The notes beneath the pieces were generated by a model that saw nothing but the letters and a program-made list of their open reading frames with translations, was not told the origin of the DNA and did no database searches. This document shows, piece by piece, positions 3,075 through 59,113 of a stretch of DNA of 64,000 nucleotides. Numbering within the stretch: position 1 is the first letter of the stretch; every line of letters begins with the position of its first letter. Position numbers and translations under genes: made by a program. This stretch comes from a bacterium (lineage in GTDB: Bacteria > Patescibacteriota > Patescibacteriia > UBA1558 > S5-K13): the NCBI GenBank assembly GCA_029555085.1, contig JAKPTO010000014.1, forward strand, positions 567 through 64,566, written 5' to 3'.

Positions 3075-3665
3075 ATGAATATTATTGAAAATTGGATCAA
3101 ATGTTGGAGGTTGTTCTTTCATGGCATCAAAAATGCAAAGGCGAAGCGTTTCTTCTATGAGCGCGAGACCTATGGGGAAGAGATTTTCAAGCTCGAGAGT
3201 CAGCTTGAGAAACTCGAAGAATCCAAAGACGTAGAGATTCCCAAGGACTCATTCCTTATGCTTCCTGTTCCTGCGGAAGTTTTGTTTTGTAATGTGTCCC
3301 CTGTAACGCGAGTGTCCTTTCGTATGGAGGATGATAGTGTCAGGGAAAGAATAATGGGAGTTTCTCATAGATATGATAAACCCTATATTATTAAAAAATC
3401 TGAAATTGGGCAAATTGCCAATGCTCTTGAGATAGGAGCTATGATGAAATTCGGATTTTTTAGAAACAATTTCCAAGAATTTCTCCTGGCAAATCCAGTT
3501 TCAGCGTTTTTGTCGTCCATGAATCCGGGAATAGGATTTCAAAATCCGTTTCTGGCAAAAGACATGATTGAATCCCCGAATATAAGGGTTAAATCAAGAA
3601 TATTCTTGAACGACGAGAATGTGGGGAATAAAACAATAGTTTTCATTAACTCGCAAGAGTTATAA
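3075..3665 (+). CDS. hypothetical protein (compositionally atypical, GC-rich 5' half)
   Basis: ORF track 3045..3665; GGAGGA Shine-Dalgarno at 3063-3068 favours the internal Met at 3075; followed by a strong intrinsic terminator; no recognisable domain. Confidence 0.5.
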   Translation: MNIIENWIKCWRLFFHGIKNAKAKRFFYERETYGEEIFKLESQLEKLEESKDVEIPKDSFLMLPVPAEVLFCNVSPVTRVSFRMEDDSVRERIMGVSHRYDKPYIIKKSEIGQIANALEIGAMMKFGFFRNNFQEFLLANPVSAFLSSMNPGIGFQNPFLAKDMIESPNIRVKSRIFLNDENVGNKTIVFINSQEL

Positions 3666-7901: not shown

Positions 7902-8510
7902 ATGACAAAGAAAAAAAATAATCTTCTGTCTAAAATTTATTTGCTTCTTTTTTGGATAAGGAAAGTAAAAAACAATAGGGACAAAGATTTATTCGCTGAT
8001 TTGTGGCAAAAAACTTGGCTTGATCAAGGATATGCCACGGAAACAACTTTAGCAGAATTAATAAAGCATTATCGCAAATATGATGAGTTTGCGGAAGACT
8101 TTATTCTTTATTTTCTTGGTAAACCAATTGGAACCATAAGATTAATTATTGGTAAATTATTGCCAGTTGTTGAAGATTTTGAAGTCGAGAGTCAATATAA
8201 AGATATCGCTAATATGGAAATCACACTAATGACTCTTGATCGTAAATTTCAAAGACATGATCATTTAGCATCTTTACTACTTATGAGAGTTTTTTATAGA
8301 TTTGCAATAAAAAACAAATTCTATGGAGCTGTCATGGCAACAGATGCTAGATTATTTAAACTTTTGAACATCATGGGTTTTCACATGATCAAAATTGGTC
8401 CTGAGAAATTCTATGAAGGTTCAATAACAATTCCGGCTTATATTGATCTTAGAGAGACAGAAAAAAAAGTCTCGAAAAGAAATCCGGATTTGTACAAATT
8501 TTTTTCATAA
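7902..8510 (+). CDS. GNAT-fold acyltransferase-like protein (possibly N-acyl amino acid synthase/autoinducer-synthase-like)
   Basis: 202 aa; strong SD; general similarity to the GNAT/acyl-transferase fold (FEVES...ITLMTLD...LLL...A.K....GF); family assignment tentative. Confidence 0.4.
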   Translation: MTKKKNNLLSKIYLLLFWIRKVKNNRDKDLFADLWQKTWLDQGYATETTLAELIKHYRKYDEFAEDFILYFLGKPIGTIRLIIGKLLPVVEDFEVESQYKDIANMEITLMTLDRKFQRHDHLASLLLMRVFYRFAIKNKFYGAVMATDARLFKLLNIMGFHMIKIGPEKFYEGSITIPAYIDLRETEKKVSKRNPDLYKFFS

Positions 8511-8537
8511 GAGACGAACTAGTTCGTCTCTTTTTAT
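8511..8537 (+). terminator. rho-independent terminator
   Basis: gagacgaact/agttcgtctc perfect palindrome followed by TTTTTAT. Confidence 0.7.
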
Positions 8538-8567
8538 ATACTCGTAAGTTTTAATTTTAAAATAAAA

Positions 8568-8591
8568 AATTGCCACTATTAATAGGCAATT
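8568..8591. repeat. R module: hairpin (aattgcc-N10-ggcaatt) flanked by A- and T-tracts; second copy at 19404-19431
   Basis: ~45 nt (8561-8606) ~85% identical to 19397-19441; looks like a bidirectional terminator; marks one boundary of the GC-rich island. Confidence 0.55.
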
Positions 8592-8831
8592 TTATAGATC
8601 ATCGTGTTAGTACGAAATGGAGGTGTTTGTTGGATAAATTTTAGACCTTTTTTGAAGAAAATTCGGATTTGGAATTTTGAATGCTCTATTCCGTTGCCAC
8701 TCGCTGTTCCGCAAAAAATCATTCTTCGTAATTTTTATTTTATGCACACTCGATGCCATTTAGTGATCGCTTTTTAGATTGCTCTATTATAGGTTATCAT
8801 TTTTCTAAATTCATATTTTTATATAATTTAC

Positions 8832-11800
8832 TTATGCTTGTTTTTGACTATATTCATTATAGAGCACCTGAACCTCTTCCTTAGTTTTTAAACGTGGATC
8901 ATCTATCAATTTAATTTTTTTAGAGCTACCATTCACAGTGCGTTCGTATACAATTGTATGTGTTTTTATTTCTTGACCTTCCACAATCAGTGTGTAGTCA
9001 TTTTCTCGCACCTCAGTCGGAACAAAACCAGTTTTCTCCACAAGTTTTCTTGATGGAAGATTGATTTCAGAAACTCGAACCCGAAGACCTTTAAAATCCG
9101 GGATAGTATTTTTGGCGAAATCAAATATTTTGTTAATTGTTTCTGTTGCTACGCCCCTACCTTGCATTTCCGGAGTCAAGAACATACCACCTATATTGTA
9201 AAATCCAGGATTGTTTGGCAACTCATACAAAGCACTCAGACCTATTATCTCATCTTCTGTGTCGCGAAGTGCCCATTTGTAGTCAACGGTTTTTTCATCT
9301 TGTTTCTTTATGCGTTCTTTGAGAGCAAAATATGGGTAAAAAACATTGGAATTTTTTTCTGCCACACGATCAAGGTGCACGCGTTCAGCACGTGTTGTTT
9401 CAGTATAGTCATTGATACTACCGAAAGTAGTCACCATCTCCCCTGATTTAAATTTTGCTCCATAACCAACTTCATTCATAACTCGCTCAATGAGTTGTGT
9501 TGTTTGCGCGACCCATTCAACAGCATAAGCATTTGTTTTAAGTTGTCCATTCGCATCAAGCAACAAAGTACGGTCATTTTCGTTTGGTTCATTGCCAATT
9601 TTTATAACAGATTCATCTCGAATACCGTGCGTTTCTTCTAAAAAGGCAAGTGCAGTAGATTTATTTATTCCACGCATTACTAAATCTAGTTGCTCGCCTC
9701 TATTAGTTGTAATAACATCAAGTCCAAGCGATTCTGCCAATTGTTGAATTTGAGATATCTCATCTTCCAAACCTACGCGTGATACTTTAATACCTTCATC
9801 ATTTAAATCATAGAACGCGATATTGATTCTACGTTCATTGTTGTGAATATCAGCCAAAATATTTTCTCTGGAAAGCAGTGATTGAAGTCTGGTTATTTTT
9901 ATATCAATTTCTTCAATAGTAAAATTTTGAACTAGTTCACCGTTGTGATAATATGCCGCTCCGGTATCGGCACTAATCTCAAAATTAGCCGGATTCATTC
10001 CATTGGTTTCCAAGATTTCAGCAATAGAATCGTATTGTTTTCCCGAGCTAATCACAACCATAACACCGCGTTCATTAAGACGTTGTAATGATGCTACTGT
10101 TTTTGCGTTTATAAACCCTCCGTCTTCAAGTGTGCCGTTTAGATCCAGTATCACCGCTTTTGGTTTTTCTGTAAAAAATTGTTTGTCTTCTTCTTGTTCT
10201 TGCATTTCATAAGCTATACACAATTTACATAATTCAGAAAAATCATTCGCCAACTCTTGTAAGTTTCTGTTTTCAAGACCGTGAGATAGGTACTTTTTAC
10301 AAATTCGGACGAATTCACTATGAATAGGTTCAGGAATGCCTACATTTTTGTTTTGTATTGCGTCTAATTCTTTTTCAGGATATGGAAGGTTGCGCAATAC
10401 CTCCGTAGAATTAGCGGATTTTACTTGCAGTGGGAACATGCCAGGATTTGTTTTATATATTTTTTGAACTAATACACCTAGAATACGCATCATTTGCTTT
10501 GCTTCATATACTTGCTTGTCGCCCTCGTATAAAGGATCAATAATGCGATACGTCCCATCTTGCTCAACCATCACATTTCGTAAATTGAATTGACCAGCAA
10601 CGACGCCTCTTTCATGCAAGGAAGCAATATCCTTAATAACAGCTGAGATTTCTTTTAAAAACACAACCCATTCTTGTGGCTCTTTCATCTCGGCAACAAT
10701 ATCCTCTGCTTGATGGCCTTTAATAAGTTCCATAATGAGCATATTGCGTTCGCGGTCATATTCATAACATTGCGGAAAACGATTAGCCAAATCGCCGGCT
10801 TGTTGTTGTAATGCTTGAGTGTATTGATATTCTTCATCCAAATATTGCAAACCGATTTTAATAGCAACCTTTTTACCACTTTCCTCATTAATTGCTTCAA
10901 AAACTTTGGATTCCTTTCCTAAGCCAAGCATTTTTGAGAATTGATATTTCTTCCCATCTATAATAAGTCCGCCTTTTTGTTCAAAAATGGACATCCAGAT
11001 AGCTCGTTCTTGTGCAACAAAATCTTTAAATAATTTATCTTTTCGGTTTTCTGGAAAATTTAATCGTTGCCACACCTCCAGTAAACTTTGAAAATCTTTT
11101 GTGATTATTGGATGACCGGATTCGTGTCGCATACCGGTTATTCTACCAGCAATGCCATCGGCAAATTCAGGTAATCCGATCAAGACGCTGACAGTTTCTC
11201 CATTTTCTTTGGTTGCTGACAGAACAAACTGATTAAACATGTGTGAAATAGAGTACTCTGTCCAACGCTCAAACGGAATGGCGCGATATATTGATTCAAT
11301 ATCTGTATACACCTGAGGATTACAATAGTTTTCTACGGTTATTTTATTTTTCATATGTTCAAAAACTGCAATATCAATAACCCCATTTTCGTAATTTTGT
11401 AGTGCTGTATGCAACAGCTCTGTCCCAATAATATATGTCGCGACTTGTTCATCTTCTGGCCGTTTACCAAATACCGTGGTAATATCTAATGCTTCCAATA
11501 ATTTTATTTTTGAAATAAATCTTTTTACATTTTTATCGCACTGCTCTCCGTCTGGTAAGCCAAATTCCATGAGTTGATTGTTTGTAATCATTGACTTTAG
11601 AAACATCTCTCTTTGTTTAAGTAGTTGTTCACCTCTCTCAGTATATTCTATGGTTGCATTACCAAACTCACCGACATTTACTGAATATTCTTTATCCCTA
11701 ATGATTTGGCGATAGAAACTTAAAAGCATTCTAGAAAGCTCAAACTCTATTGATGATGCGTCACGTTCAGGACTGCCATTTATATCAATTAGTTGAATAT

Positions 11801-13919
11801 TGCCTTCTTGATCCATTAAAATATTTCCGAAATGTAGATCACCGTGAGTGAATTCAGGTATAACTGAATCGGAAAAATCACGATCAAGCATAGGAGTTGA
11901 TTTTTTTACCCACTCAAGCAACGTGCTCATATTAACTCGTGTTTCGCCGTTTATTTTTATTAGCTCATGGCGAGCAAATTCTTGTAAATTTTTATCGTCA
12001 ATATTTTGTAAGAACTCAAGACCGCGTTCAATTGAAGAAAGATGATGATCGGAAAAATATCGATCTTCCACATGTTTTTCTCCTTTTGACCACAGTTCTC
12101 GTTTTAAATCCATAAAAAGATTATTAAATTCGTTTTGTGTCACCTCTCTAGTTGGTTTTTTTCCAAAGTATTGGTCATCAAGCGAACCACCTTCAATAAA
12201 GGGTGATACATAATATACTTCATCATCTTTCACATTGCTATCAATCAATTCAGGTATAATGGAAATACCAACTTTCTGCATCTGACAGGTTCGTTGGATT
12301 TGTCGCAACAAATGTTCGTATTGATTTCCATACGGCGCTCTTTTTATGACAAATTTTTTACCTTGCTCGTTTTCCATAATGCTGACTGATGCGCCCATTG
12401 ATGTGCGTTTGTCCAAATTTCCTTCCTCGACCGGTTTTAATTGCTCATAGTAAAAAGGGTAATCATATTCTTCTATATAACGTGGGATGTATACATTATC
12501 TGAATCTCGCATCTGTTTATGTCCAAGAGGAATCCATTTATATCGTTCATTGCCATTTTTATCTCGCTTCAGAGCGCGGGTTGTCAATCGATGATGTGGA
12601 AAATAATCCCAACCGGGAACGAGCTGAAAGTTCATTTTTTTTGAGGTTCCATTTACGGTAATAGGTACAGCAGAAGGATTGAAGTCCAAAATACCCCGTC
12701 CATATTTTCCACCAGCATACTTTATTTCATTAAAGGCGCGATAATAAAATGCCATTCTTTTAATGTATTCTTCTTTGGAGTGTTTAGTATTAAACATATC
12801 TGGAGAAAGTGTTCCACGATAAAACGACATCCAACTTTCAAGACTGCCCAATATATCAATGGATTCTATAAGTTCGTCCAGTTCTGTCGCTTGATTTTTT
12901 TGCAAAGCATCTTCTATTTCCAAATTTTTTCGCTCTTCTTGCTTTTCCTTCATGATTTTCATAAGAATGCTGAACAGTTCCCCGTTTTCTCGCAGAGTAT
13001 CAATTGGGCTTTGATCGTCTTTAATATCTGGTATATTGAATTTAGCAAATTCGGAACGATGAGAAGAGATGTATTTGTTTATCTTGGTGACGGCTGATTC
13101 ATATTGTTGCTGTACGGTATCTTTTTTTTCTCTTAGACGATATTGCCATTTTTTTTCGTCCTGATCTTCAACATTTATCAAACATCGTCTTACTAATTCC
13201 GCCGCGTCAATAATTTTAACCGGATTTTCTCTATTATCCATATCTTCTTTGTTGCGACCGGACTGAGCATATGCCTGCTCATTAAGTTTTTCTAAAATTT
13301 TAAGCGTTTCCTGTGTCTCGTCTTGGTATCTTCCCAATGCACGATATAAATTACCTTCATATCCAATATTAATTTGCAGGCCAGGTGAATAAATCGTTTC
13401 TGCGCCACGTGCGATTTGTTGCAAGTTGGAAAAAGCGAGATAATTTGCCATATCAGGCAAGAGTTGTCTATCAGAAATGTCCGGATTTTTAAATTTTGGA
13501 GAAAATGAAAGGCCAAAAAAAACAATAGGTTGATTTTCTCTTATGGCTTCAACCATCGTGTGTATTATATTGGCGTCGTATTCTGGACTTCTATATGTAC
13601 TGCCAGTTCTTCGTATTTCCCCTGGACGTCCAGATAAATATTCAAGCAGAGCAACAGCTGTTACCTCGGGTGTTTTTTCAAATTCTCGTTTTTCTAAATT
13701 AGTAAGACCCTCAGGAGTATATTTTTCATAATATGATCGTAGAGAATCCTTAATGCGTCTGGAAATCTGTCCAGGAAATATCGTACTTTCGGGAATAAAA
13801 GGAGGTTTGTACTCGGGAGTTGTTGGGTATTCATTAATTTTATGTGATTCGTGGTTTTGCTCGATTATTTTTTGTTCTTGTTCTTTTTGTTGGTAATGTA
13901 AAGCATTTTTTTCTAGCAT
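8832..13919 (-). CDS. giant multidomain protein: PvcA/Dit1 isonitrile-synthase-like domain + APH-like kinase + second kinase-like domain + HAD hydrolase + C-terminal GNAT
   Basis: 1695 aa. aa~120-470: QPIVFFGLSFSPKFKNPD...LLPDMANYLAF...IYSPGLQINIGYEGNLY aligns by eye with PvcA QPIHFILPAFPAKSPNP...LPDMGEQVAL...VYAPGARITICSDGRVF. aa~505-720: THGDLHFGNILMD...LIDINGSPE (APH/choline-kinase Brenner motif). aa~990-1150: LGLGKESKVF...KKVAIKI glycine loop + VAIK but catalytic loop reads VVAGQFNLRN (no HRD Asp). aa~1254-1465: VILDLNGTL...VISSGK...INKST...GNEPNEND (HAD motifs, DxN not DxD). aa~1520-1660: GGMFLTPEMQGRGVATE GNAT motif A. Higher GC than flanks. Confidence 0.6.
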   Translation of the reverse strand: MLEKNALHYQQKEQEQKIIEQNHESHKINEYPTTPEYKPPFIPESTIFPGQISRRIKDSLRSYYEKYTPEGLTNLEKREFEKTPEVTAVALLEYLSGRPGEIRRTGSTYRSPEYDANIIHTMVEAIRENQPIVFFGLSFSPKFKNPDISDRQLLPDMANYLAFSNLQQIARGAETIYSPGLQINIGYEGNLYRALGRYQDETQETLKILEKLNEQAYAQSGRNKEDMDNRENPVKIIDAAELVRRCLINVEDQDEKKWQYRLREKKDTVQQQYESAVTKINKYISSHRSEFAKFNIPDIKDDQSPIDTLRENGELFSILMKIMKEKQEERKNLEIEDALQKNQATELDELIESIDILGSLESWMSFYRGTLSPDMFNTKHSKEEYIKRMAFYYRAFNEIKYAGGKYGRGILDFNPSAVPITVNGTSKKMNFQLVPGWDYFPHHRLTTRALKRDKNGNERYKWIPLGHKQMRDSDNVYIPRYIEEYDYPFYYEQLKPVEEGNLDKRTSMGASVSIMENEQGKKFVIKRAPYGNQYEHLLRQIQRTCQMQKVGISIIPELIDSNVKDDEVYYVSPFIEGGSLDDQYFGKKPTREVTQNEFNNLFMDLKRELWSKGEKHVEDRYFSDHHLSSIERGLEFLQNIDDKNLQEFARHELIKINGETRVNMSTLLEWVKKSTPMLDRDFSDSVIPEFTHGDLHFGNILMDQEGNIQLIDINGSPERDASSIEFELSRMLLSFYRQIIRDKEYSVNVGEFGNATIEYTERGEQLLKQREMFLKSMITNNQLMEFGLPDGEQCDKNVKRFISKIKLLEALDITTVFGKRPEDEQVATYIIGTELLHTALQNYENGVIDIAVFEHMKNKITVENYCNPQVYTDIESIYRAIPFERWTEYSISHMFNQFVLSATKENGETVSVLIGLPEFADGIAGRITGMRHESGHPIITKDFQSLLEVWQRLNFPENRKDKLFKDFVAQERAIWMSIFEQKGGLIIDGKKYQFSKMLGLGKESKVFEAINEESGKKVAIKIGLQYLDEEYQYTQALQQQAGDLANRFPQCYEYDRERNMLIMELIKGHQAEDIVAEMKEPQEWVVFLKEISAVIKDIASLHERGVVAGQFNLRNVMVEQDGTYRIIDPLYEGDKQVYEAKQMMRILGVLVQKIYKTNPGMFPLQVKSANSTEVLRNLPYPEKELDAIQNKNVGIPEPIHSEFVRICKKYLSHGLENRNLQELANDFSELCKLCIAYEMQEQEEDKQFFTEKPKAVILDLNGTLEDGGFINAKTVASLQRLNERGVMVVISSGKQYDSIAEILETNGMNPANFEISADTGAAYYHNGELVQNFTIEEIDIKITRLQSLLSRENILADIHNNERRINIAFYDLNDEGIKVSRVGLEDEISQIQQLAESLGLDVITTNRGEQLDLVMRGINKSTALAFLEETHGIRDESVIKIGNEPNENDRTLLLDANGQLKTNAYAVEWVAQTTQLIERVMNEVGYGAKFKSGEMVTTFGSINDYTETTRAERVHLDRVAEKNSNVFYPYFALKERIKKQDEKTVDYKWALRDTEDEIIGLSALYELPNNPGFYNIGGMFLTPEMQGRGVATETINKIFDFAKNTIPDFKGLRVRVSEINLPSRKLVEKTGFVPTEVRENDYTLIVEGQEIKTHTIVYERTVNGSSKKIKLIDDPRLKTKEEVQVLYNEYSQKQA

Positions 13920-14045
13920 ATGATTTTGTCAATCTTGATTAATATAATTATCACAATATCCATTTTTATTCTTATTGCTTGCTATAACTTATTGAGTTAA
14001 TATTTGTGTTTATATTTTAATAAACGTTTTTTTATCATCATAGCT

Positions 14046-14097
14046 ATATTATTTTTATTTTCTCACAATTCAAACAAAAAGTAAAATAAAAAAATCG
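14046..14097 (-). promoter_or_regulatory. L module: sigma70-like promoter (TTGAAT-N16-TAATAT on minus strand) upstream of the giant gene; near-identical copy at 19359-19405
   Basis: ~50 nt atattattttt(t)attttctcacaattcaaacaaaaagtaaaataaaaa repeated ~5.3 kb apart, each 65-180 nt upstream of a minus-strand start codon (13919 and 19288). Confidence 0.5.
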
Positions 14098-14120
14098 CTC
14101 TCAAAAAAGCGATTATTATT
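14087..14120 (-). terminator. rho-independent terminator for the mod-res-rSAM transcript
   Basis: minus-strand atcgct-tttttgag-agcgat hairpin followed by a T7 run, ~90 nt downstream of the radical-SAM stop. Confidence 0.55.
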
Positions 14121-14205
14121 GATCTGTTTTGAGTGGATTTTAAAATTCAAAGTGAATTATTATTCCTCTTTGCTATTTAGTAATTCCAATGAATGGAGGT
14201 ATTTT

Positions 14206-15198
14206 TTATTTCCTTACAAAAGTATTACAAGTGGAACAAGGAATGTCCACTAGATCTTTATTATTTGAATGAATTAATTTTTTGGAGAAAAAATTTCTTG
14301 AAAGTTTATAATATTTATTATTCCAAATATCTTTCAATTTTTGATTCAATATATTTCCATAAGAAAATCTATCAAAGTCCCCTCCGCAACATGGATACAA
14401 GCTTCCATCTGGTCTTATCATGCATCCTAAATATAACCAAAAACAAGTTCGTTTATATGTTTTTGTTTTAGGGCTATCATTATTATCATCATATCCCAAA
14501 TTTTCTTGTCTATATGTAATTCTGTCTACTTTTATTTCTCTCAAAAATTCATCAATCTGATTTAACTCGTCTTTTATATGATTAAAAGTGACAACCTGAA
14601 CATCTACAATGGGATATTTCTTTTTGTTTTTTATTTTATACTCCATTACATCCCTTAAGCCCTGTTTTACAATTTCTACATCTCCACCTTGTCTATACTG
14701 AGAGTATTTCTCTTGTGAAAAACCATCCAAACATGGTTCTAATACTGTAAGACCTGAGTCAAATAATTTTTTAATATCATCTTTTTTAAATAGATTAAAG
14801 TTTGTACTAATAAGAGTGCTTATGTTATTTTTGTTTGCATAAGATATCATCTCATATATATCTTTGTTTAGAAGTGGTTCGCCCATATCATACAATGATA
14901 CACGAAGCGCGTATTTTTTTATTTTATCAATAATACTTTTAAAATCTTCTAGTGTCATTATTCTTTTTTCTTTTGTATTGGTCTGCCATGACTGACACGA
15001 TGGGCATCTTAAATTGCACGCAGAACATGGATCTATTCTATAAATAAATGGCCTCGAGATACACCTTCCTCGTCTAAATGTCATTTCAAGAAATGAAATA
15101 ATAACATTTATGGCCTTAGTAAATGTCAAAAATGGGAGTAATGAAAAAAAATGTCTTTTAATGAATAAACCTAGCTTATTATAAAATGAAAGCTTCAT
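14206..15198 (-). CDS. radical SAM protein with SPASM/twitch-like Cys-rich C-terminus
   Basis: 330 aa; CNLRCPSC radical-SAM cluster motif (within CSACNLRCPSCQ); C-terminal CFWLYLGC...YPCCGGD...CSTC Cys cluster pattern; N-terminal hydrophobic segment; same strand as and downstream of mod-res. Confidence 0.6.
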   Translation of the reverse strand: MKLSFYNKLGLFIKRHFFSLLPFLTFTKAINVIISFLEMTFRRGRCISRPFIYRIDPCSACNLRCPSCQSWQTNTKEKRIMTLEDFKSIIDKIKKYALRVSLYDMGEPLLNKDIYEMISYANKNNISTLISTNFNLFKKDDIKKLFDSGLTVLEPCLDGFSQEKYSQYRQGGDVEIVKQGLRDVMEYKIKNKKKYPIVDVQVVTFNHIKDELNQIDEFLREIKVDRITYRQENLGYDDNNDSPKTKTYKRTCFWLYLGCMIRPDGSLYPCCGGDFDRFSYGNILNQKLKDIWNNKYYKLSRNFFSKKLIHSNNKDLVDIPCSTCNTFVRK

Positions 15199-15371
15199 AG
15201 AATTACTTGTTAATAAAATTTATTAAAATATTTAATGCTAATTAATATATTAACTTAAAAAAATTTTCAAGTAAAGATGAATCAATAATCTTTTGTATAT
15301 TTGGGACATCCTTGATCCCCAATGATCTGCGTAATTTATAAAAAATCGTTTTTAAAATAATAATTATTTAG

Positions 15372-15533
15372 CTAGTTATTTATGGTGGTGTGCGTTCGAA
15401 AAAATTTGAACTGATTTTGCTCAAAATTTATATGGCTGACGAAAATCCCCTCCCAATCCTCTTCCTTTTTGTCCACCTGCCTAGGCTTCGCTCCTAAAAC
15501 TCTTGGGCAAGATATTTTTTTGGTGTAATTCAT
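15372..15533 (-). CDS. possible small ORF (53 aa) in GC-rich res-rSAM intergenic region
   Basis: manual translation MNYTKKISCPRVLGAKPRQVDKKEEDWEGIFVSHINFEQNQFKFFRTHTTINN; no clear SD; below the ORF-track length cut-off; could equally be a gene remnant. Confidence 0.2.
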   Translation of the reverse strand: MNYTKKISCPRVLGAKPRQVDKKEEDWEGIFVSHINFEQNQFKFFRTHTTINN

Positions 15534-15569
15534 AAAGTTAAATATATCTCTTCATGCACTCGCTAAATT

Positions 15570-17708
15570 TCACATAGTTACCTTCTTACAAAAGTTCACA
15601 AACTCGTCTTTTGATAATAATTTTTCGTTACCTTCCACATACTGAAAAATACGCCATTTATCATCTCGCAAAATCGGTAAATAAAATATCTGATTGGTTA
15701 GTTTAGAAGCTTGTTTATATGCTTTTTTCAATTCTTCCAACTTCGTTTTATAGATATTATTATCAAAACCCCCGACCATATTTGCAGAAATATTTACACT
15801 TTTTACTTCAAAAATATGTATTCTATTAAAGCTGTCTTTCATCACAAAGTCTGGATATGAAGAATGCGGTGCGCCGAGATAATACTCAAACTTTATCGGC
15901 GAGTTTGCCACATAATTTTTACCCCACAGATACACTTGTTTCGTATCTAAAAACTCTGGTTCTGTTTCTCCAAATAAATCAGTTGCTCCGGCTTTTGGAT
16001 TCTTCCTCCCAACTGTTACTCTTTTACCAACTCGTCCATCGCCAACCGCTACATCATCTTTTGCAAGGTCCTTTAAGATACTCGTCCACGCACGCTCCGC
16101 TTCACTATCAAATGCAAACTTCTCTTTGCCGTCATTGCGTTTCCATACCCAGTCGCCAATATCTACATAATTGCCGTTGTCGGTGTAATGTGAAGTCAGA
16201 GCAAAGGAAACTTCTACTTCTTTTCCGTTTTCGTCTTTTACTACTTCCATGCTTTTCTCATAATCATTCACATATTGACTGCTTTCATTTGCTACGGTAT
16301 CAATATTTTCCACAAACTCACGCCATTTTGTATAAGTCGTCGCATAATTTTCGCCCATTTCTCGCACGCTGTTTTCGGCTTTCACAAAATTTCTCCATAA
16401 AGAAAAAATAGAACTCGGAGTAGATACGATTGATTGTTTTTTCAAGAATGTCGTTAGATTAAAACTGGCCTTTTTGGTCAAGGATTTTAACCGTGTTGTC
16501 TTAATTTTGATCTCATTAGTAATAATTTCGCTATCTTGCCACAATTTCACGCCAAAACTTTTTCGCAAGTCTCCGGGAACAATGCCCCAAATCCATGCGG
16601 TCATAGCTAGTCTTTGTGCGTCTTCTGATAATGATTCAAAATCAAGTAGTCGCGGGTTCCGTCTTACTCGCCCCATCACTTGCTCATCCAATTGCTTACT
16701 CTTACTATCCCGTATTTGAAAAAGCATACAGGCGCGTGGAATATCCCACCCCTCAGTAATCACCATTTTGAAAATGATAATATCAATCGTACTTGAATTT
16801 TCTTTTGCATAATCTTTCCACTTGCTCACAGGCAACTTTTTGGCCTTAAAAGTGTCGTTGGTGTCGCATTGCTTCTCGTTATTAACAATTAGCATCCACT
16901 TTAGATCCGTGTGTTCAGCTTTTTCCAGTTCCTTTTTAATCTCGGCAATTTCAGCATCCGCTTTGTCTTTGTTGCTAATCTGGATAATTAGACATGGGTT
17001 TACGCCCAGCATGTTGCGGTAATCTTTTTTTATTTCTTCAAACTTCGTAATCGCATCAGTCACTTTGGCATCAGGGTCGTCAACCAACTCAATATCTTTG
17101 ATCAGTTTCGCATTTACCGCGTCATCGTTTTTAATCTCAACATCAGGGTGTTGTCCACGCGAAAGTTTTGGCGTGGCAGAGAAGTTGTATATTTTGGTAA
17201 AGAATTTTTCTGATAAACTATCCAGATTGTTGGTGGCAATATGGCACTCGTCTTTTATTAAATAGACTTTTTTATCCAAGCCACCTATCAATTCCGTCCC
17301 AGTTACTGTGCGTAAAAATCCTTCCATTGCTCCTTGCATCAGTCGTCCGCCTTTTTTATATAAATCGCGAGGTAAAAGATAAACATTATAGTCGGTTGGC
17401 ACAAACAATCTCTCTTCACCTGCAATTTCGCTACTAATTAAATATGGCTTCAATTCCGGAAAATTTCCTTTTACTGAGTATTGTTGAAACTTCTCATAAT
17501 TTTGTGTGGCGAGATCGCCTTTTGAAAGTGTAGAAACAAGAAAAATCACATTTTTATCAGCTGATAAAATGCGGTTCATCATATCCGCCATCATATAGGT
17601 TTTACCACTTCCTGTTGGCGCTTTGAAAGTTATCTCATCTTGTGCAGAGGTGAGTTCAACAAGAGAAGTGACGGCGTTTTGCTGTAGGTCTATTGCTTCT
17701 TGTTTCAT
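15570..17708 (-). CDS. res: Type III restriction enzyme Res subunit (SF2 helicase + C-terminal PD-(D/E)xK nuclease)
   Basis: 712 aa; Walker A APTGSGKT, DEAH-like LIKDECH, C-terminal PDFVMKD...IFEVKS nuclease motif; start 2 nt after mod stop. Confidence 0.75.
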   Translation of the reverse strand: MKQEAIDLQQNAVTSLVELTSAQDEITFKAPTGSGKTYMMADMMNRILSADKNVIFLVSTLSKGDLATQNYEKFQQYSVKGNFPELKPYLISSEIAGEERLFVPTDYNVYLLPRDLYKKGGRLMQGAMEGFLRTVTGTELIGGLDKKVYLIKDECHIATNNLDSLSEKFFTKIYNFSATPKLSRGQHPDVEIKNDDAVNAKLIKDIELVDDPDAKVTDAITKFEEIKKDYRNMLGVNPCLIIQISNKDKADAEIAEIKKELEKAEHTDLKWMLIVNNEKQCDTNDTFKAKKLPVSKWKDYAKENSSTIDIIIFKMVITEGWDIPRACMLFQIRDSKSKQLDEQVMGRVRRNPRLLDFESLSEDAQRLAMTAWIWGIVPGDLRKSFGVKLWQDSEIITNEIKIKTTRLKSLTKKASFNLTTFLKKQSIVSTPSSIFSLWRNFVKAENSVREMGENYATTYTKWREFVENIDTVANESSQYVNDYEKSMEVVKDENGKEVEVSFALTSHYTDNGNYVDIGDWVWKRNDGKEKFAFDSEAERAWTSILKDLAKDDVAVGDGRVGKRVTVGRKNPKAGATDLFGETEPEFLDTKQVYLWGKNYVANSPIKFEYYLGAPHSSYPDFVMKDSFNRIHIFEVKSVNISANMVGGFDNNIYKTKLEELKKAYKQASKLTNQIFYLPILRDDKWRIFQYVEGNEKLLSKDEFVNFCKKVTM

Positions 17709-17710
17709 AA

Positions 17711-19288
17711 TTATTCGTCTTCAAGAGTTTTTTGTGTATTTTCAAAATTTTCACACACCCATTTTATTTTTTCTTTTACTCCAAGTTTTTCCTGCCCGTA
17801 CAAAGTTTCATCTATTTTTTCAAATGGTTCGTCAGAGTACGGTGCTACAGTGGCAATATCATAAACATCAAGATTGCCGTCGAGTGGTTTATTTTTCTCG
17901 TTCCACTTAAAATCTTTACTTCCGTCATAACATTCACCAGTCATTACTCGTTTGAGACGTTTGCTTGTTACATCATTCACAATTCCGTTTGGTGTGGTGT
18001 CGGTTATCTCATTGGCAGTGGCAAGAATAAACTGTCTTTTTCCACCATCTTCCTTATTAAGTTCCAGTACTGCTTGCCCAGTTGTCCCTGAACCAGCAAA
18101 GAAGTCGAGGATAATTAAATTTCTGTTAACTAAACCAATTAAATATTTGATTAGTGATATAGGTTTTGGGTTATCAAATATATTATTTTCTATTATGCTT
18201 ATCAATTCCTTCCCACCATCTTCATTTGTCCCAACCCCACATTCTTCTTTATTTATTATATTTGACGGTTTTTTCTTTCTTTCTCCCTCTCTTTCATACC
18301 TTATAGAGAATTCATTACTTTTTATATAAAATACTGTGCCATTTTTAACCTCTTTGTCTACTGTCTCTTGAGTCCATTTAAAATTACCTCTCAACTCAAA
18401 GTCCTTATCTGCTTTACCGTTTGCTATATTTATATTAGTTAGAAGTTGAGTTTTCTTTTTATAACCATCTTTAAATTCCCCATTAATCTTAAAAATAACA
18501 GAATCCTTATTAAATTTTATTGTTCGTATTGGGTTTCCACTGTTTAACAATGGCATATCTCCACCTACTATTATACCCGCACTCAAACCCTCGTCTCTTT
18601 TTCCATTTTGATAACATAAGACATATTCATATTTTTTTCTTATATCTTTACCCAAGCTGGGGGGGGTAGCGGTTTTATTCCACATAAAATTTGCTAAGAA
18701 ATTACTCTCCTCGAATACCTCATCAAAAAGCCCCTTTACATACGCTTGATTTTTATCATCAATACTACAAAAGATTACCCCATTATCACTTAAAAGCTGT
18801 CTAGCAAGAACTAGGCGCGGATAAAGCATAGAAAGCAGGTTGTCTCTCGTGATGGCATTGTTGTAATTTGTCTGTGCAAACTCTCCCATAGAGTCCTTGC
18901 CATATGGCGGATCAATATAGATCACATCAATCTTTCCGCGGTATTCAATCAGCAAATTGAGAAGTGCATCATAGTTATCTCCGATGATGAGTTTGTGTGT
19001 TTGTGCGTTCTTGTCTTGTACAAAACTCAATTCATTGTTTTTCTTAAAATACTTTATCGTGTCGGTCATTTTCTCCAGTCGTTTGTCAAAGTGAAAGCCT
19101 GTGCGTTTATATGTTGTTCCAAGCTCGGCGATCATAATCGCTTCATTGATAGTATCTGTATTTGTAATGAGTTTTTTCAAGAGATCAGCATTCGTTTTTT
19201 CTATAATCTTGTCGGCAATACGTTTATCTATCTCGGTTATGAGATCGTCTTTAACTTTTCTTATATTGTTTGTTGTAGTATCTTTCAT
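17711..19288 (-). CDS. mod: Type III R-M Mod DNA methyltransferase (beta-class, N6A/N4C)
   Basis: 525 aa; motif IV IDPPYGKD precedes motif I ILDFFAGSGTTG (beta-class order as in Type III Mod); contains a C8/G8 tract. Confidence 0.8.
   Translation of the reverse strand: MKDTTTNNIRKVKDDLITEIDKRIADKIIEKTNADLLKKLITNTDTINEAIMIAELGTTYKRTGFHFDKRLEKMTDTIKYFKKNNELSFVQDKNAQTHKLIIGDNYDALLNLLIEYRGKIDVIYIDPPYGKDSMGEFAQTNYNNAITRDNLLSMLYPRLVLARQLLSDNGVIFCSIDDKNQAYVKGLFDEVFEESNFLANFMWNKTATPPSLGKDIRKKYEYVLCYQNGKRDEGLSAGIIVGGDMPLLNSGNPIRTIKFNKDSVIFKINGEFKDGYKKKTQLLTNINIANGKADKDFELRGNFKWTQETVDKEVKNGTVFYIKSNEFSIRYEREGERKKKPSNIINKEECGVGTNEDGGKELISIIENNIFDNPKPISLIKYLIGLVNRNLIILDFFAGSGTTGQAVLELNKEDGGKRQFILATANEITDTTPNGIVNDVTSKRLKRVMTGECYDGSKDFKWNEKNKPLDGNLDVYDIATVAPYSDEPFEKIDETLYGQEKLGVKEKIKWVCENFENTQKTLEDE
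18659..18666. repeat. G8 (coding-strand C8) homopolymer inside mod
   Basis: ctgg+gggggg read directly; encodes ...ATPPS...; highly unusual in a ~27% GC background. Confidence 0.8.
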
Positions 19289-19358
19289 AGTTTTATTTCA
19301 TTAAATCATCAGTTTTTATTTCAAAGTTTTTTTGCTATATTTATTATGTTTATTATTA

Positions 19359-19441
19359 CAATATTATTTTTTATTTTCTCACAATTCAAACAAAAAGTAA
19401 AATAAAAATTGCCATTTAATAGACAATTTTATATATCATTG
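19359..19441. repeat. composite L+R module (promoter for mod operon plus hairpin) immediately downstream of tRNA-Ser
   Basis: L part 19359-19405 matches 14046-14097 (TTGAAT-N17-TAATAT on minus strand); R part 19397-19441 matches 8561-8606. Confidence 0.55.
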
Positions 19442-19453
19442 TGATAATTGTTT

Positions 19454-19545
<92 letters not shown>

Positions 19546-19583: not shown

Positions 19584-19658
19584 TGGCTGGGGAGGTAGGG
19601 TTCGAACCTACGCATGTCGGCTTCAAAGGCCGATGCCTTACCACTTGGCTACTCCCCA
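19584..19658 (-). tRNA. tRNA-Gln (anticodon UUG), CCA encoded
   Basis: revcomp TGGGGAGTAGCCAAGTGGTAAGGCATCGGCCTTTGAAGCCGAC...GGTTCGAACCCTACCTCCCCAGCCA; closely resembles canonical bacterial tRNA-Gln. Confidence 0.8.
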
Positions 19659-19739
19659 ATAAAAATAATAGATGTAAAATATTATCTCTTATTATTTAAG
19701 AAATGTCAATATCTGTGTATTTATTTAAATGTTTATTAT

Positions 19740-20201
19740 TTATTTTTTCTTGTCAGTATCTTCAACAACATTCACTAGCAAAAATGTTTCACTTTCTTGT
19801 CCTAATTTTATTGCGACTTTATGCTCGCCCAATGTTTTTATGTTTTGCTTTAATTCTATTTTTGAAGCGTCAATTTGTATTCCGTGTTTTTCTTGTAAGA
19901 TTTTTGACAATTGATCTGCGCTTATTCCACCAAATAAATTACCTTCGTTATTTGCCTTTGCGCTGATTGTAATTTTTAATTTAGAAATTTTATTCAATAA
20001 ATTATCTAATTTTTTTTGCTCGTTTATTTCTTTTTGTTTGTTGTTGCGAATTTTATTCTCTAGTTGTTTTATTTTTCTGTCATCAGCTAGTTCTGCTAAT
20101 TTTTGTGGAAATAAAAAATTCAAAGCATATCCAGGGGAAACTTCTTTTATTTCGTCTTTACGCGCTACATTTTTTACATCTTTTATAAATATTACTTTCA
20201 T
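19740..20201 (-). CDS. rplI: 50S ribosomal protein L9
   Basis: MKVIFIKDVKNVARKDEIKEVSPGYALNFLFPQKLAELA N-terminal L9 signature. Confidence 0.85.
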   Translation of the reverse strand: MKVIFIKDVKNVARKDEIKEVSPGYALNFLFPQKLAELADDRKIKQLENKIRNNKQKEINEQKKLDNLLNKISKLKITISAKANNEGNLFGGISADQLSKILQEKHGIQIDASKIELKQNIKTLGEHKVAIKLGQESETFLLVNVVEDTDKKK

Positions 20202-58619: not shown

Positions 58620-58949
58620 TTATTTCAGTAGTATTATTTTACGAGTGGGAGTGTATTTCCCACACGTAAGTTTGAACAGGTAGATTCCATTGGAAACCCT
58701 GTTTTTGTTTTTGTCAGTCCAATTCCATATTATTTTGTGATTTCCAGGGCTCATTTTTCCATTTACAAGAGTTACAATGTGTTGACCTTTTATGTTGTAA
58801 ACAGAAATATTAACAAATGCAGTTTCTTGTAAAGAAAAAGAGAGTTTTGTTTGGGAATTGGAATTGGAACTGGAAATAGTCAGAATGCCTTGACCATACG
58901 AAAAAGTAATGATCAAGACAAGTGTTGTAACTATTACTAGCTTTTTCAT
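58620..58949 (-). CDS. signal peptide + T9SS (Por) type C-terminal sorting domain only
   Basis: 109 aa; ...VYNIKGQHIVTLVNGKMSPGNHKIIWNWTDKNKNRVSNGIYLFKLTCGKYTPTRKIILLK; GC-rich relative to genome. Confidence 0.55.
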   Translation of the reverse strand: MKKLVIVTTLVLIITFSYGQGILTISSSNSNSQTKLSFSLQETAFVNISVYNIKGQHIVTLVNGKMSPGNHKIIWNWTDKNKNRVSNGIYLFKLTCGKYTPTRKIILLK

Positions 58950-59113
58950 ATGATCCTCCTTTGCTATAATTAATTATTCCATTTAATTACACTTTTGTCA
59001 ATAATTTAAATAAAAAAAGAGCTCCCTTTTGGCTTATGCCTCGAGGGAGCTTTGGAGGAATCGCTTAGTCCGCCCTTTAGGTGTGACTAGATTAGGCGGA
59101 CTTCAGCAGGAAA

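What the first reader, a model, noticed from the sequence alone, without database searches (positions are those of the whole stretch)
8561..19441. ~11-kb GC-rich genomic island at tRNA-Ser/tRNA-Gln, partitioned by duplicated promoter (L) and hairpin (R) modules
Seen in sequence: an L module of ~50 nt (14046-14097 and 19359-19405, near identical) gives on the minus strand TTGAAT-N16/17-TAATAT. It sits 65-180 nt upstream of two unrelated minus-strand transcription units (the giant fusion gene and mod-res-rSAM). An R module of ~45 nt (8561-8606 and 19397-19441, ~85% identical) forms an A-tract/hairpin/T-tract structure. At 19359-19441 L and R are contiguous and directly abut the 3' end of tRNA-Ser. 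At 14.05 kb only L is present, and at 8.56 kb only R. Everything between the R copies is higher in GC than the flanks. Inference: two cargo cassettes were inserted or duplicated by recombination at a promoter-terminator site next to a tRNA. No integrase or transposase is present, so the island may be a decayed integrative element or was assembled by homologous recombination between module copies. A partial duplicate of the 3' end of the GNAT gene (8470-8500 vs 8650-8680, ~80% identity) also suggests rearrangement at this junction.
Basis: seen in the sequence. Interest (0 to 1): 0.6.

Follow-up and report, generated by a model that had tools for sequence, protein, structure and literature searches.

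The report
Mosaic foreign-gene island beside tRNA-Ser
A 10.9-kb block of imported genes (a phase-variable type III restriction system, a radical-SAM enzyme and a very rare 1,695-residue multi-enzyme) sits between tRNA-Ser and its ancestral neighbour, and short duplicated terminator and promoter-like pieces mark its joints; it is a real but fairly ordinary genomic island.

Summary
The repeats are real. L is 41 nt exact (47/48 nt with one T indel) at 14046-14092 and 19361-19408. R is 45/52 identical at 8558-8609 and 19398-19446, about 13 SD above background. That site also holds a 26-nt scar copy of the tRNA-Ser 3' end.

The island is a mosaic, not uniformly GC-rich. The mod-res block (15513-19311, 36% GC) is 85.5% nt-identical to a 41-47% GC genome, where it follows a tRNA-Ser and a large serine recombinase. 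The giant gene (8778-13948, 36% GC) is 74-77% identical to genes in three unrelated contexts. The rSAM block between them (27.5% GC) looks native.

Neither foreign block kept upstream DNA of its own (the R-M lost its controller gene), and each now sits behind an identical copy of L. All three joints share the terminator T-tract TTTTTATTTTA. No integrase or remnant was found.

The "GNAT 3' duplicate" is chance. The promoter reading of L is plausible but weak (8/12 to consensus) and untested. Verdict: a new member of a known kind, of modest interest.

The parts
19584..19658 (-). tRNA-Gln(UUG), first gene of the tRNA operon. Its TTGACA-N17-GATAAT promoter lies at 19681-19709.
   Evidence: ARAGORN and Rfam. 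The promoter scores 11/12 and is conserved in L006, L087 and L098.
19455..19544 (-). tRNA-Ser(UGA). The island begins 8 nt past its 3' end.
   Evidence: It differs at one base from the tRNA-Ser of L098.
19398..19446 (-). R1: a 9-bp hairpin plus U-tract, the likely intrinsic terminator of the tRNA operon. It is the tRNA-proximal copy of the R direct repeat.
   Evidence: Alignment to R2, score 63 vs background 16.4 +/- 3.4; fold -12.6 kcal/mol, z -3.0.
19361..19408 (-). L1: terminator T-tract plus a promoter-like module (T-rich upstream stretch, TTGAAT, 17-nt spacer, TAATAT). It lies 73 nt upstream of mod and overlaps R1 by 11 nt.
   Evidence: Exact 41-nt repeat; sequence read. Promoter function is inferred only (8/12 to consensus).
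15513..19311 (-). Imported type III R-M block: mod 17711-19288 and res 15570-17708, overlapping by 4 nt. Only about the last 20 nt of the controller (HTH) gene survive upstream of mod.
   Evidence: 85.5% nt identity over 3817 nt to L095/L096. PADLOC MTase_III 2.4e-71 and REase_III 1.3e-21. GC3 is 0.31-0.37 vs about 0.17 for native genes. Junction alignments.
18652..18659 (-). C8 homopolymer in the mod coding strand, a candidate phase-variation tract.
   Evidence: Homologs read ACTCCTCCA and ACCCCTCCG at the same codons. Contig L003 has 7 C, which splits mod into 215 + 314 aa.
15199..15512 (-). Spacer between res and rSAM, of unknown origin. It has a GC-rich patch at 15440-15512. The 53-aa ORF at 15372-15533 is probably spurious.
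   Evidence: No family match. Homology to L095 ends at 15513.
14206..15198 (-). Radical SAM/SPASM protein (330 aa) with native-like composition; specific function unknown.
   Evidence: Pfam Radical_SAM 1.5e-16 and SPASM 3.3e-10. All NCBIfam hits fall far below their cut-offs. GC 28.4%, GC3 0.22.
14093..14114 (-). T2: intrinsic terminator after rSAM. It is possibly the ancestral terminator of the tRNA operon.
   Evidence: Terminator scan. It is the best match in the whole window to the hairpin downstream of tRNA-Ser in L098 (score 30 vs next 20, mean 11 +/- 2). The reciprocal search is weaker (30 vs 27).
14046..14092 (-). L2: second copy of the T-tract plus promoter-like module (16-nt spacer), 127 nt upstream of the giant gene.
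8778..13948 (-). Imported giant-gene block. The CDS is 8832-13919 (1695 aa): DIT1/PvcA-like isonitrile-synthase domain, APH/ABC1-like kinase, Ser/Thr-kinase domain, Cof-type HAD phosphatase and GNAT.
   Evidence: Pfam and NCBIfam. Only 6 homologs among 5.8 billion proteins. 74-77% nt identity to L091-L094, limited to the gene plus about 30-50 nt either side, in different contexts. GC3 0.28.
8610..8777 (-). Spacer between the giant-gene block and R2, of unknown origin.
   Evidence: No tRNA remnant, no protein family, and no match to the flanks of giant-gene homologs.
8558..8609 (-). R2: distal copy of the R terminator module and the far edge of the island. Native sequence follows it.
   Evidence: The sequence beyond it (TTAAAATTA..., then the GNAT terminator and GNAT 3' end) matches the L098 intergenic region.
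7902..8532 (+). Ancestral neighbour: a convergent FeeM-like GNAT gene (7902-8510) and its terminator (8509-8532).
   Evidence: 85% aa identity to the gene 209 nt from tRNA-Ser in L098. Pfam FeeM; terminator scan.

Best explanation
This is a lineage-specific 10.9-kb genomic island in the intergenic gap between tRNA-Ser(UGA) and a convergent GNAT gene. The host is an uncultured low-GC bacterium.

The island was probably assembled in at least two or three insertion events rather than arriving as one element:
- A type III R-M cassette came from a higher-GC donor lineage, where its closest relative lies in a recombinase-bearing island next to a tRNA-Ser.
- A radical-SAM gene block has native-like composition.
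- A rare 1,695-residue multi-enzyme gene turns up in different places in different genomes.

The joints fall in the T-tract of intrinsic terminators. All three hairpins (R1, T2, R2) are followed by TTTTTATTTTA. After that tract come L (twice) or native sequence (once).

R1 and R2 are duplicated terminator modules that bracket the island. R1 would terminate the tRNA operon and R2 the giant gene. L1 and L2 are identical copies of 'T-tract + T-rich upstream stretch + TTGAAT-N16/17-TAATAT'. They most likely supply transcription to two foreign cassettes that kept none of their own upstream DNA. The R-M in particular lost its controller gene.

Shown: the repeats, the empty site, the foreign origin and boundaries of the two cassettes, and the absence of an integrase.
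Inferred: promoter and terminator function, the order of events, and the kind of recombination that made the duplications.
For: - Empty site. L098 has rplI, tRNA-Gln, tRNA-Ser, 209 nt, then the GNAT ortholog. Like the window, it has no pyrG between rplI and tRNA-Gln.
- Other relatives (L006, L087-L089) keep synteny on both sides but carry different genes after tRNA-Ser.
- Foreign cargo. mod-res is 85.5% nt-identical over 3817 nt to a 41-47% GC contig. The giant gene is 74-77% nt-identical to genes in three other contexts and is GC-richer than its flanks in all of them.
- Composition. GC3 is 0.28-0.37 in the cargo vs about 0.17 in native genes. Tetranucleotide z is 2.3-4.0 over both blocks and -0.5 to -0.8 over the rSAM block.
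- L lies outside both homology blocks and is absent from all relatives.
- Only the last ~20 nt of the C-protein gene remain upstream of mod.
- This tRNA is used as an attachment site in the clade. L098 has a 26-nt copy of the tRNA-Ser 3' end 57 nt downstream of the gene (score 30; shuffles 14.4 +/- 2.1, max 28 of 2000). L006 has a GIY-YIG insertion with a duplicated tRNA-Ser 5' half.
- The closest R-M relative lies right after a tRNA-Ser(GGA) and a large serine recombinase.
- Sigma-70-type promoters operate in this clade: a conserved TTGACA-N17-GATAAT precedes tRNA-Gln in four species.
- The hairpins fold with z about -3.
Against: - There is no recombinase, and no remnant of one, in or beside the island.
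- R does not include tRNA sequence. Its mismatches are scattered rather than flanking an identical core.
- L reaches only 8/12 to the promoter consensus, and the plus strand of L scores 9/12 (TTCTCA-N16-TAAAAT). Such matches are at chance level in this region.
- All same-species contigs are about 99.98% identical, so no population variant shows an intermediate or an excision.
- Only 64 kb of this genome could be examined, so L and R could have further copies elsewhere.
- L098 is not clearly closer to the window than the other relatives in protein identity (71-88%), so 'empty' could also mean 'lost'.
- The apparent age difference between L (0-1 differences) and R (7 differences) is not significant (Fisher p = 0.06-0.11).
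Confidence: 0.6

Rival explanations
1. Decayed integrative element. One element integrated by site-specific recombination just 3' of tRNA-Ser. R1 and R2 are its attL and attR. The recombinase gene, and the R-M controller gene, were deleted later, and L was duplicated internally afterwards.
For: - Direct repeats bracket the island exactly, and one abuts the tRNA 3' end.
- The empty site in L098 carries a scar copy of the tRNA-Ser 3' end.
- In L095 the closest mod-res relative follows tRNA-Ser(GGA), a large serine recombinase, a 172-aa ORF and an HTH gene, in the same orientation. The window holds only R1, L1 and 49 nt in their place.
Against: - No recombinase remnant is left.
- R has no long identical core and no tRNA sequence.
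- There are three blocks of different composition and different external relatives. The giant gene's relatives are never next to this R-M.
- A terminator (T2) similar to the one at the L098 empty site lies in the middle of the island, not at an edge.
Confidence: 0.25
2. L and R are members of a dispersed family of short intergenic repeats (REP- or MITE-like, or simply the genome's stock terminator/promoter sequences). Their presence at the island joints is incidental.
For: - Both are short, AT-rich, intergenic and hairpin- or T-tract-containing.
- Only 64 kb of the genome could be searched.
- The metagenome collection gave no match to L, although L lies on a JGI metagenome contig. That contig therefore seems absent from the collection, so the negative scan says nothing.
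Against: - There is no third copy of either in the 64-kb window, even at 3 mismatches or by gapped alignment, and none in the orthologous loci of five related species.
- The copies sit exactly at the borders of the blocks that have external homologs.
Confidence: 0.1
3. Assembly artefact: a chimeric join or a collapsed repeat at L or R.
For: It is a metagenome contig, and short repeats can cause misjoins.
Against: - Contigs from five different samples (JGI and ENA) match the window at 99.98-100% identity over the part each covers, with no rearrangement. Three of them span R1/L1 through L2 into the giant gene, to window 9740. Two end inside mod, not at a repeat. The R2 joint is not covered by any fetched locus.
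- The 41-48-nt repeats are shorter than the larger k-mer sizes usually used by metagenome assemblers (my knowledge; the assemblers' settings were not checked).
Confidence: 0.02

Closest known systems
tRNA-associated genomic islands and integrative elements (pathogenicity-island type, P4-like satellites, IMEs)
   Same: It lies at the 3' flank of a tRNA gene and is bracketed by direct repeats. Its composition deviates from the host. A relative has the site empty, with a scar copy of the tRNA 3' end. The cargo includes a restriction-modification system. In E. coli, 18 of 41 defence hotspots are tRNA loci (PMC10121019).
   Different: It has no integrase or recombinase. The flanking repeat is the terminator downstream of the tRNA rather than part of the tRNA, and its two copies are only 87% identical. 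The content is a mosaic of at least three blocks, one of which looks native.
Defence islands and integration hotspots (Hochhauser et al. 2023, PMC10121019)
   Same: The site is variably occupied between conserved core genes, differs between related species, and holds an R-M system next to other accessory genes.
   Different: Only the R-M is a recognised defence system here. The giant protein matches defence models only through its generic kinase domain (PD-T4-6, MAD6; E 1e-10 to 1e-12). In E. coli such islands are nearly always on recognisable mobile elements, and none is recognisable here.
Integron cassette arrays
   Same: Promoterless foreign genes are inserted in series next to a fixed site. 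Each unit ends in a hairpin-forming element, and expression depends on a promoter that did not come with the cassette.
   Different: There is no IntI integrase and no attI. R and T2 are simple terminator hairpins without the attC architecture. Every unit has its own promoter copy instead of sharing one Pc. This is a resemblance only, not membership.
Phase-variable type III mod genes ('phasevarions', e.g. H. pylori ModH5, PMC5700931)
   Same: A homopolymeric C/G tract lies inside a type III mod ORF. Its length differs by one base between natural populations, which switches the frame on (525 aa) or off (215 + 314 aa).
   Different: The host is an uncultured environmental bacterium, not a host-adapted pathogen. 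Only two tract lengths were seen, in assembled contigs. Switching rate and regulatory effects were not tested.
C-protein-controlled restriction-modification operons
   Same: In the closest relatives (L095, L096) a 69-aa HTH gene ends 6 nt before mod, the usual controller arrangement.
   Different: In the window only the last ~20 nt of that gene remain. Any control must come from the L module or from phase variation.

Membership tests
tRNA-integrated genomic island (integrase-mediated) | Located at the 3' end or flank of a tRNA gene | tested here: met
   R1 starts 8 nt after tRNA-Ser 19455-19544.
tRNA-integrated genomic island (integrase-mediated) | Absent from the same site in a related genome (empty site) | tested here: met
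   In L098, tRNA-Ser is followed after 209 nt by the GNAT ortholog.
tRNA-integrated genomic island (integrase-mediated) | Flanking direct repeats (attL/attR) that include the tRNA 3' segment | tested here: not met
   R1/R2 direct repeats exist but contain no tRNA sequence. No tRNA remnant lies next to R2 (score 14, below the shuffle mean of 16.6; no Rfam hit).
tRNA-integrated genomic island (integrase-mediated) | Encodes an integrase or recombinase | tested here: not met
   No such domain occurs in any ORF or spacer fragment.
tRNA-integrated genomic island (integrase-mediated) | Composition differs from the host genome | tested here: inconclusive
   Met for 8778-13948 and 15513-19311 (36% GC, GC3 0.28-0.37, tetranucleotide z 2.3-4.0). 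Not met for 13949-15512 (27.5% GC).
Type III restriction-modification system | Mod subunit with an N6/N4 methyltransferase domain of type III kind | tested here: met
   Pfam N6_N4_Mtase 3.6e-30; PADLOC MTase_III 2.4e-71.
Type III restriction-modification system | Adjacent Res subunit with a helicase-type ATPase, co-oriented downstream of mod | tested here: met
   ResIII 2.5e-15 and REase_III 1.3e-21. The res start overlaps the mod stop by 4 nt, and the 712-aa length equals that of the closest homologs.
Type III restriction-modification system | Methylation and cleavage activity | not testable with these tools
   This needs methylome data or biochemistry.
Phasevarion (phase-variable mod) | Simple-sequence repeat inside the mod ORF | tested here: met
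   The C8 tract at 18652-18659 was created by synonymous changes relative to homologs.
Phasevarion (phase-variable mod) | Tract length varies in natural populations and shifts the frame | tested here: met
   L003 has C7 and a split mod (215 + 314 aa). The other contigs have C8 and an intact 525-aa mod. This rests on a single variant contig.
Phasevarion (phase-variable mod) | Switching alters genome-wide methylation and gene expression | not testable with these tools
   No methylome or expression data are available.
Integron | IntI tyrosine recombinase with an adjacent attI and Pc | tested here: not met
   No recombinase lies in or next to the island.
Integron | Cassettes each ending in an attC site | not tested
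   R and T2 are 9-bp-stem terminator hairpins. No attC model was available to score them.
Dispersed intergenic repeat (REP/MITE-like) | Many copies scattered through the genome | tested here: inconclusive
   Exactly two copies each occur in 64 kb, and none in relatives' loci.
Sigma-70-type promoter (for L) | -35 and -10 hexamers at 16-18 nt spacing, positioned upstream of a gene | tested here: inconclusive
   TTGAAT-N16/17-TAATAT matches 8/12, below the scan's 9/12 threshold. Hits of that kind are at chance level here. Position and orientation fit both downstream genes.
Sigma-70-type promoter (for L) | Mapped transcription start | not testable with these tools
   No transcript data are available.

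The most novel reading that the evidence does not exclude
R·L next to tRNA-Ser may be a resident 'landing pad': a terminator T-tract fused to an outward-facing promoter. Promoterless foreign cassettes would be captured there repeatedly by recombination in the T-tract, and the promoter module would be copied at each capture. That would amount to an integrase-independent, integron-like expression platform. Separately, the 1,695-residue protein (isonitrile-synthase domain, two kinase domains, phosphatase, acetyltransferase), found in only about seven protein clusters worldwide, could be a new single-gene defence or small-molecule system travelling between such sites.
Probability: 0.1. Interest if true: 0.7.

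Novelty: new member of a known kind. Interest (0 to 1): 0.33.

Why it matters
It is a cleanly bounded example, from an uncultured low-GC lineage, of how a tRNA-flanking hotspot accumulates foreign genes with no mobility gene left behind. Both imported cassettes were cut down to their coding regions and now sit behind identical copies of one short promoter-like module. If L is a working promoter, this shows how promoterless horizontally acquired genes become expressed. It also shows how an R-M system that lost its controller can be re-regulated, here probably together with a newly evolved phase-variation tract. The giant multi-enzyme gene is rare and uncharacterised and may deserve study in its own right. 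None of this overturns current views of genomic islands.

Tried and rejected
- Decayed tRNA-Ser copy in the spacer next to R2 (8610-8760). A permissive alignment looked suggestive. Under stricter scoring it scored 14, below the shuffle mean of 16.6, and Rfam at E <= 1 found nothing. Rejected.
- 'GNAT 3' end duplicate' (8470-8500 vs 8650-8680). It scored 22 against a background maximum of 35. Rejected as chance.
- The 53-aa ORF at 15372-15533 as a RiPP precursor for the rSAM/SPASM enzyme. It has one Cys and no family match, and its first codons lie in the tail of the imported R-M block. Probably spurious.
- Integrase or transposase remnants in the four spacers: none.
- L in public collections: 0 matches in metagenome contigs and in viral contigs. 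The first result is uninformative, because L lies on a JGI contig that should have matched if held.
- Plasmid relatives of the R-M block or the giant protein: only short or distant matches.
- Within-species empty-site or deletion variants. All 22 contigs read that carry the identical RplI show the same neighbours, and the five loci fetched from them are about 99.98% identical to the window.
- An HK-based metagenome scan for closer relatives found only a 65%-identical paralog-like hit in 36-37% GC contigs with no shared synteny.
- Look-ups of P0002, P0003 and P0008 gave contigs that end at tRNA-Ser or inside pyrG.
- L younger than R: not significant (p = 0.06-0.11).

Full report
**What the sequence shows**

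The window matches metagenome contigs recovered in several samples. It matches L002 (ENA) exactly and L001 (JGI) with two substitutions.

On the minus strand the order is as follows:
- tRNA-Gln (19584-19658) and tRNA-Ser(UGA) (19455-19544)
- R1 (19398-19446) and L1 (19361-19408)
- mod (17711-19288) and res (15570-17708)
- a 370-nt spacer
- a radical-SAM/SPASM gene (14206-15198)
- terminator T2 (14093-14114) and L2 (14046-14092)
- a 1,695-codon gene (8832-13919)
- a 220-nt spacer and R2 (8558-8609)
- the terminator and 3' end of a convergent GNAT gene (7902-8510)

L is 41 nt exact. No shuffle of the window reached two matches, and there is no third copy at up to 3 mismatches. It is 47/48 nt long with one T-run indel, and similarity stops sharply at both ends.

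R aligns over 52 columns with 45 identities. It scores 63, against 16.4 +/- 3.4 for all other chunks of the window. Both R copies fold into a 9-bp hairpin followed by a U-tract on the minus strand, and one stem difference (G-C vs G-U) keeps the pairing.

The reported partial duplicate of the GNAT 3' end is within background.

Contigs from five samples match the window at 99.98-100% identity. Three of them span R1/L1 through L2 into the giant gene. This rules out a misassembly over that stretch.

**Is it an island?**

Yes. Only a handful of relatives exist in the databases, with RplI 64-75% identical.

One of them is L098 (GCA_028703545.1). Like the window, it lacks pyrG between rplI and tRNA-Gln. 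It has tRNA-Ser followed after 209 nt by the ortholog of the convergent GNAT gene, with 85% aa identity and a conserved 3' flank.

The other relatives (L006, L087-L089) keep synteny on both sides but hold other genes after tRNA-Ser. Two relatives' contigs end exactly at tRNA-Ser.

The tRNA is evidently a recombination target in this clade:
- L098 has a significant 26-nt copy of the tRNA-Ser 3' end, 57 nt downstream of the gene.
- L006 has a GIY-YIG ORF inserted at the anticodon loop, with the tRNA 5' half duplicated.

**A mosaic, not one GC-rich block**

Composition splits the island into three parts:
- 8778-13948: 36.0% GC
- 13949-15512: 27.5% GC, indistinguishable from the 28.1% background
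- 15513-19311: 36.3% GC

Native genes have GC3 of about 0.17. The giant gene has 0.28, mod 0.31, res 0.37 and rSAM 0.22.

The mod-res block is 85.5% nt-identical over 3,817 nt to contigs L095/L096, from a 41-47% GC organism. In L095 the cassette is preceded by tRNA-Ser(GGA), a large serine recombinase, a 172-aa ORF and a 69-aa HTH controller gene. It is followed by further defence genes and no rSAM. In the window, homology starts inside the last ~20 nt of that HTH gene, so the controller has been lost.

The giant gene has only six homologs among 5.8 billion proteins. The three close ones are 74-77% nt-identical, and the identity is confined to the gene plus about 30-50 nt on either side. They lie in three different contexts and are 4-6 GC points above their flanks each time.

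No plasmid relatives were found.

**What L and R are**

L belongs to neither imported block. The homology blocks end 50 nt (R-M) and 98 nt (giant gene) from L, and L is absent from every related or cargo-homolog locus.

Read on the minus strand, L consists of:
- the terminator T-tract (TTTTTATTTTA)
- a second T-rich stretch
- TTGAAT
- a 16-nt (L2) or 17-nt (L1) spacer
- TAATAT, where the repeat ends

This is the anatomy of a compact promoter placed directly behind a terminator. It fits two cassettes that kept no upstream DNA of their own. The clade does use sigma-70-type promoters: TTGACA-N17-GATAAT before tRNA-Gln is conserved in four species.

The evidence for promoter function is still weak. 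L matches the consensus at 8/12, its plus strand scores 9/12, and such matches are at chance level in this AT-rich DNA.

All three hairpins (R1, T2, R2) are followed by the same 11-nt T-tract. After it comes L (twice) or native sequence resembling the L098 intergenic region (once). The T2 hairpin is the best match in the whole window to the hairpin downstream of tRNA-Ser in L098 (score 30 vs next 20), although the reciprocal search is less clean (30 vs 27).

One reading is that the ancestral gap was tRNA-Ser, T2, T-tract, GNAT. Material then entered on both sides of T2, with crossovers in the T-tract. Joined at the T-tract, the segment L2-giant-spacer-R2 would recreate an R·L junction like R1·L1. 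This is inference. The order of events and the enzyme involved are not established.

**Mechanism and rivals**

No integrase, transposase or remnant is present. R lacks tRNA sequence and an identical core.

I favour stepwise assembly at a tRNA-flanking hotspot (0.6). A single decayed integrative element is less likely (0.25). Integrase-mediated entry of at least the R-M block is plausible, given the L095 context and the scar in L098.

A dispersed-repeat explanation (0.1) cannot be excluded, because only 64 kb of this genome was accessible and the metagenome scan was uninformative. An assembly artefact is very unlikely (0.02).

**Side findings**

- mod carries a C8 tract made by synonymous changes relative to its homologs. 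One population has C7 and a split gene. This is the signature of a phase-variable type III mod (compare PMC5700931).
- The host encodes proteins with T9SS-type sorting domains. This hints at the FCB group. The taxonomic labels on relatives' records disagree with one another.

**Verdict**

The result is a well-delimited, integrase-less, mosaic island at a tRNA hotspot, a new member of a known kind (compare PMC10121019). Its mildly unusual feature is an exactly duplicated terminator-tail/promoter-like module in front of two unrelated foreign cassettes. Interest is about 0.33.

Noticed in passing
window 18652-18659 (mod gene, minus strand): A C8 homopolymer in the type III mod ORF, in a genome with GC3 of about 0.17. 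Homologs read ACTCCTCCA and ACCCCTCCG at the same codons, so synonymous changes built the tract. Contig L003 (JGI 3300036967) has C7, which splits mod into 215 + 314 aa. It is a candidate phase-variable mod.
   Followed up: partly
window 19289-19311 vs L095 9977-10000: Upstream of mod, only the last ~20 nt of the HTH controller (C-protein) gene found in the closest R-M relatives survive. The controller was lost when or after the cassette arrived.
   Followed up: yes
L098 8783-8808: The 'empty' site of the related species holds a diverged 26-nt copy of the tRNA-Ser 3' end, 57 nt downstream of the real tRNA (score 30; shuffles max 28 of 2000). It looks like a scar of an earlier integration or excision.
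   Followed up: partly
L006 11965-12386: In another relative the 5' half of tRNA-Ser is duplicated. An 81-aa GIY-YIG nuclease ORF (Pfam 3.7e-17) lies between the half-copy, which breaks at the anticodon loop, and the intact tRNA-Ser. It looks like a homing-type insertion.
   Followed up: partly
window 19659-19740, compared with L006, L086-L090 and L106: pyrG (CTP synthase, 565 aa) lies between rplI and tRNA-Gln in most relatives. It is absent there in the window and in L098, and it occurs nowhere in the 64-kb window.
   Followed up: partly
window 58620-60994: Two GC-rich genes (GC3 0.32-0.35) form the strongest tetranucleotide outlier in the window (z 4.7). They encode proteins with FlgD-Ig and T9SS C-terminal sorting domains. 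This is another probably foreign segment and a hint that the host belongs to the FCB group.
   Followed up: no
window 3075-3665 (+): A 196-aa ORF with the highest GC3 in the window (0.42) and no Pfam or NCBIfam match. It is only 33% identical to the gene at the same relative position in L006.
   Followed up: no
L093 5628-7985, L094 5833-8172, L105 12973-15189: Homologs of the giant gene in L093, L094 and L105 are followed immediately by a 738-785-aa protein with no Pfam domain. This partner is absent from the window and from L091.
   Followed up: no
L004 and L005 (contig ends at window 18370 and 19176): Two same-species assemblies break inside mod rather than at a repeat. The cause is unknown; it could be local strain heterogeneity or low coverage.
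   Followed up: no
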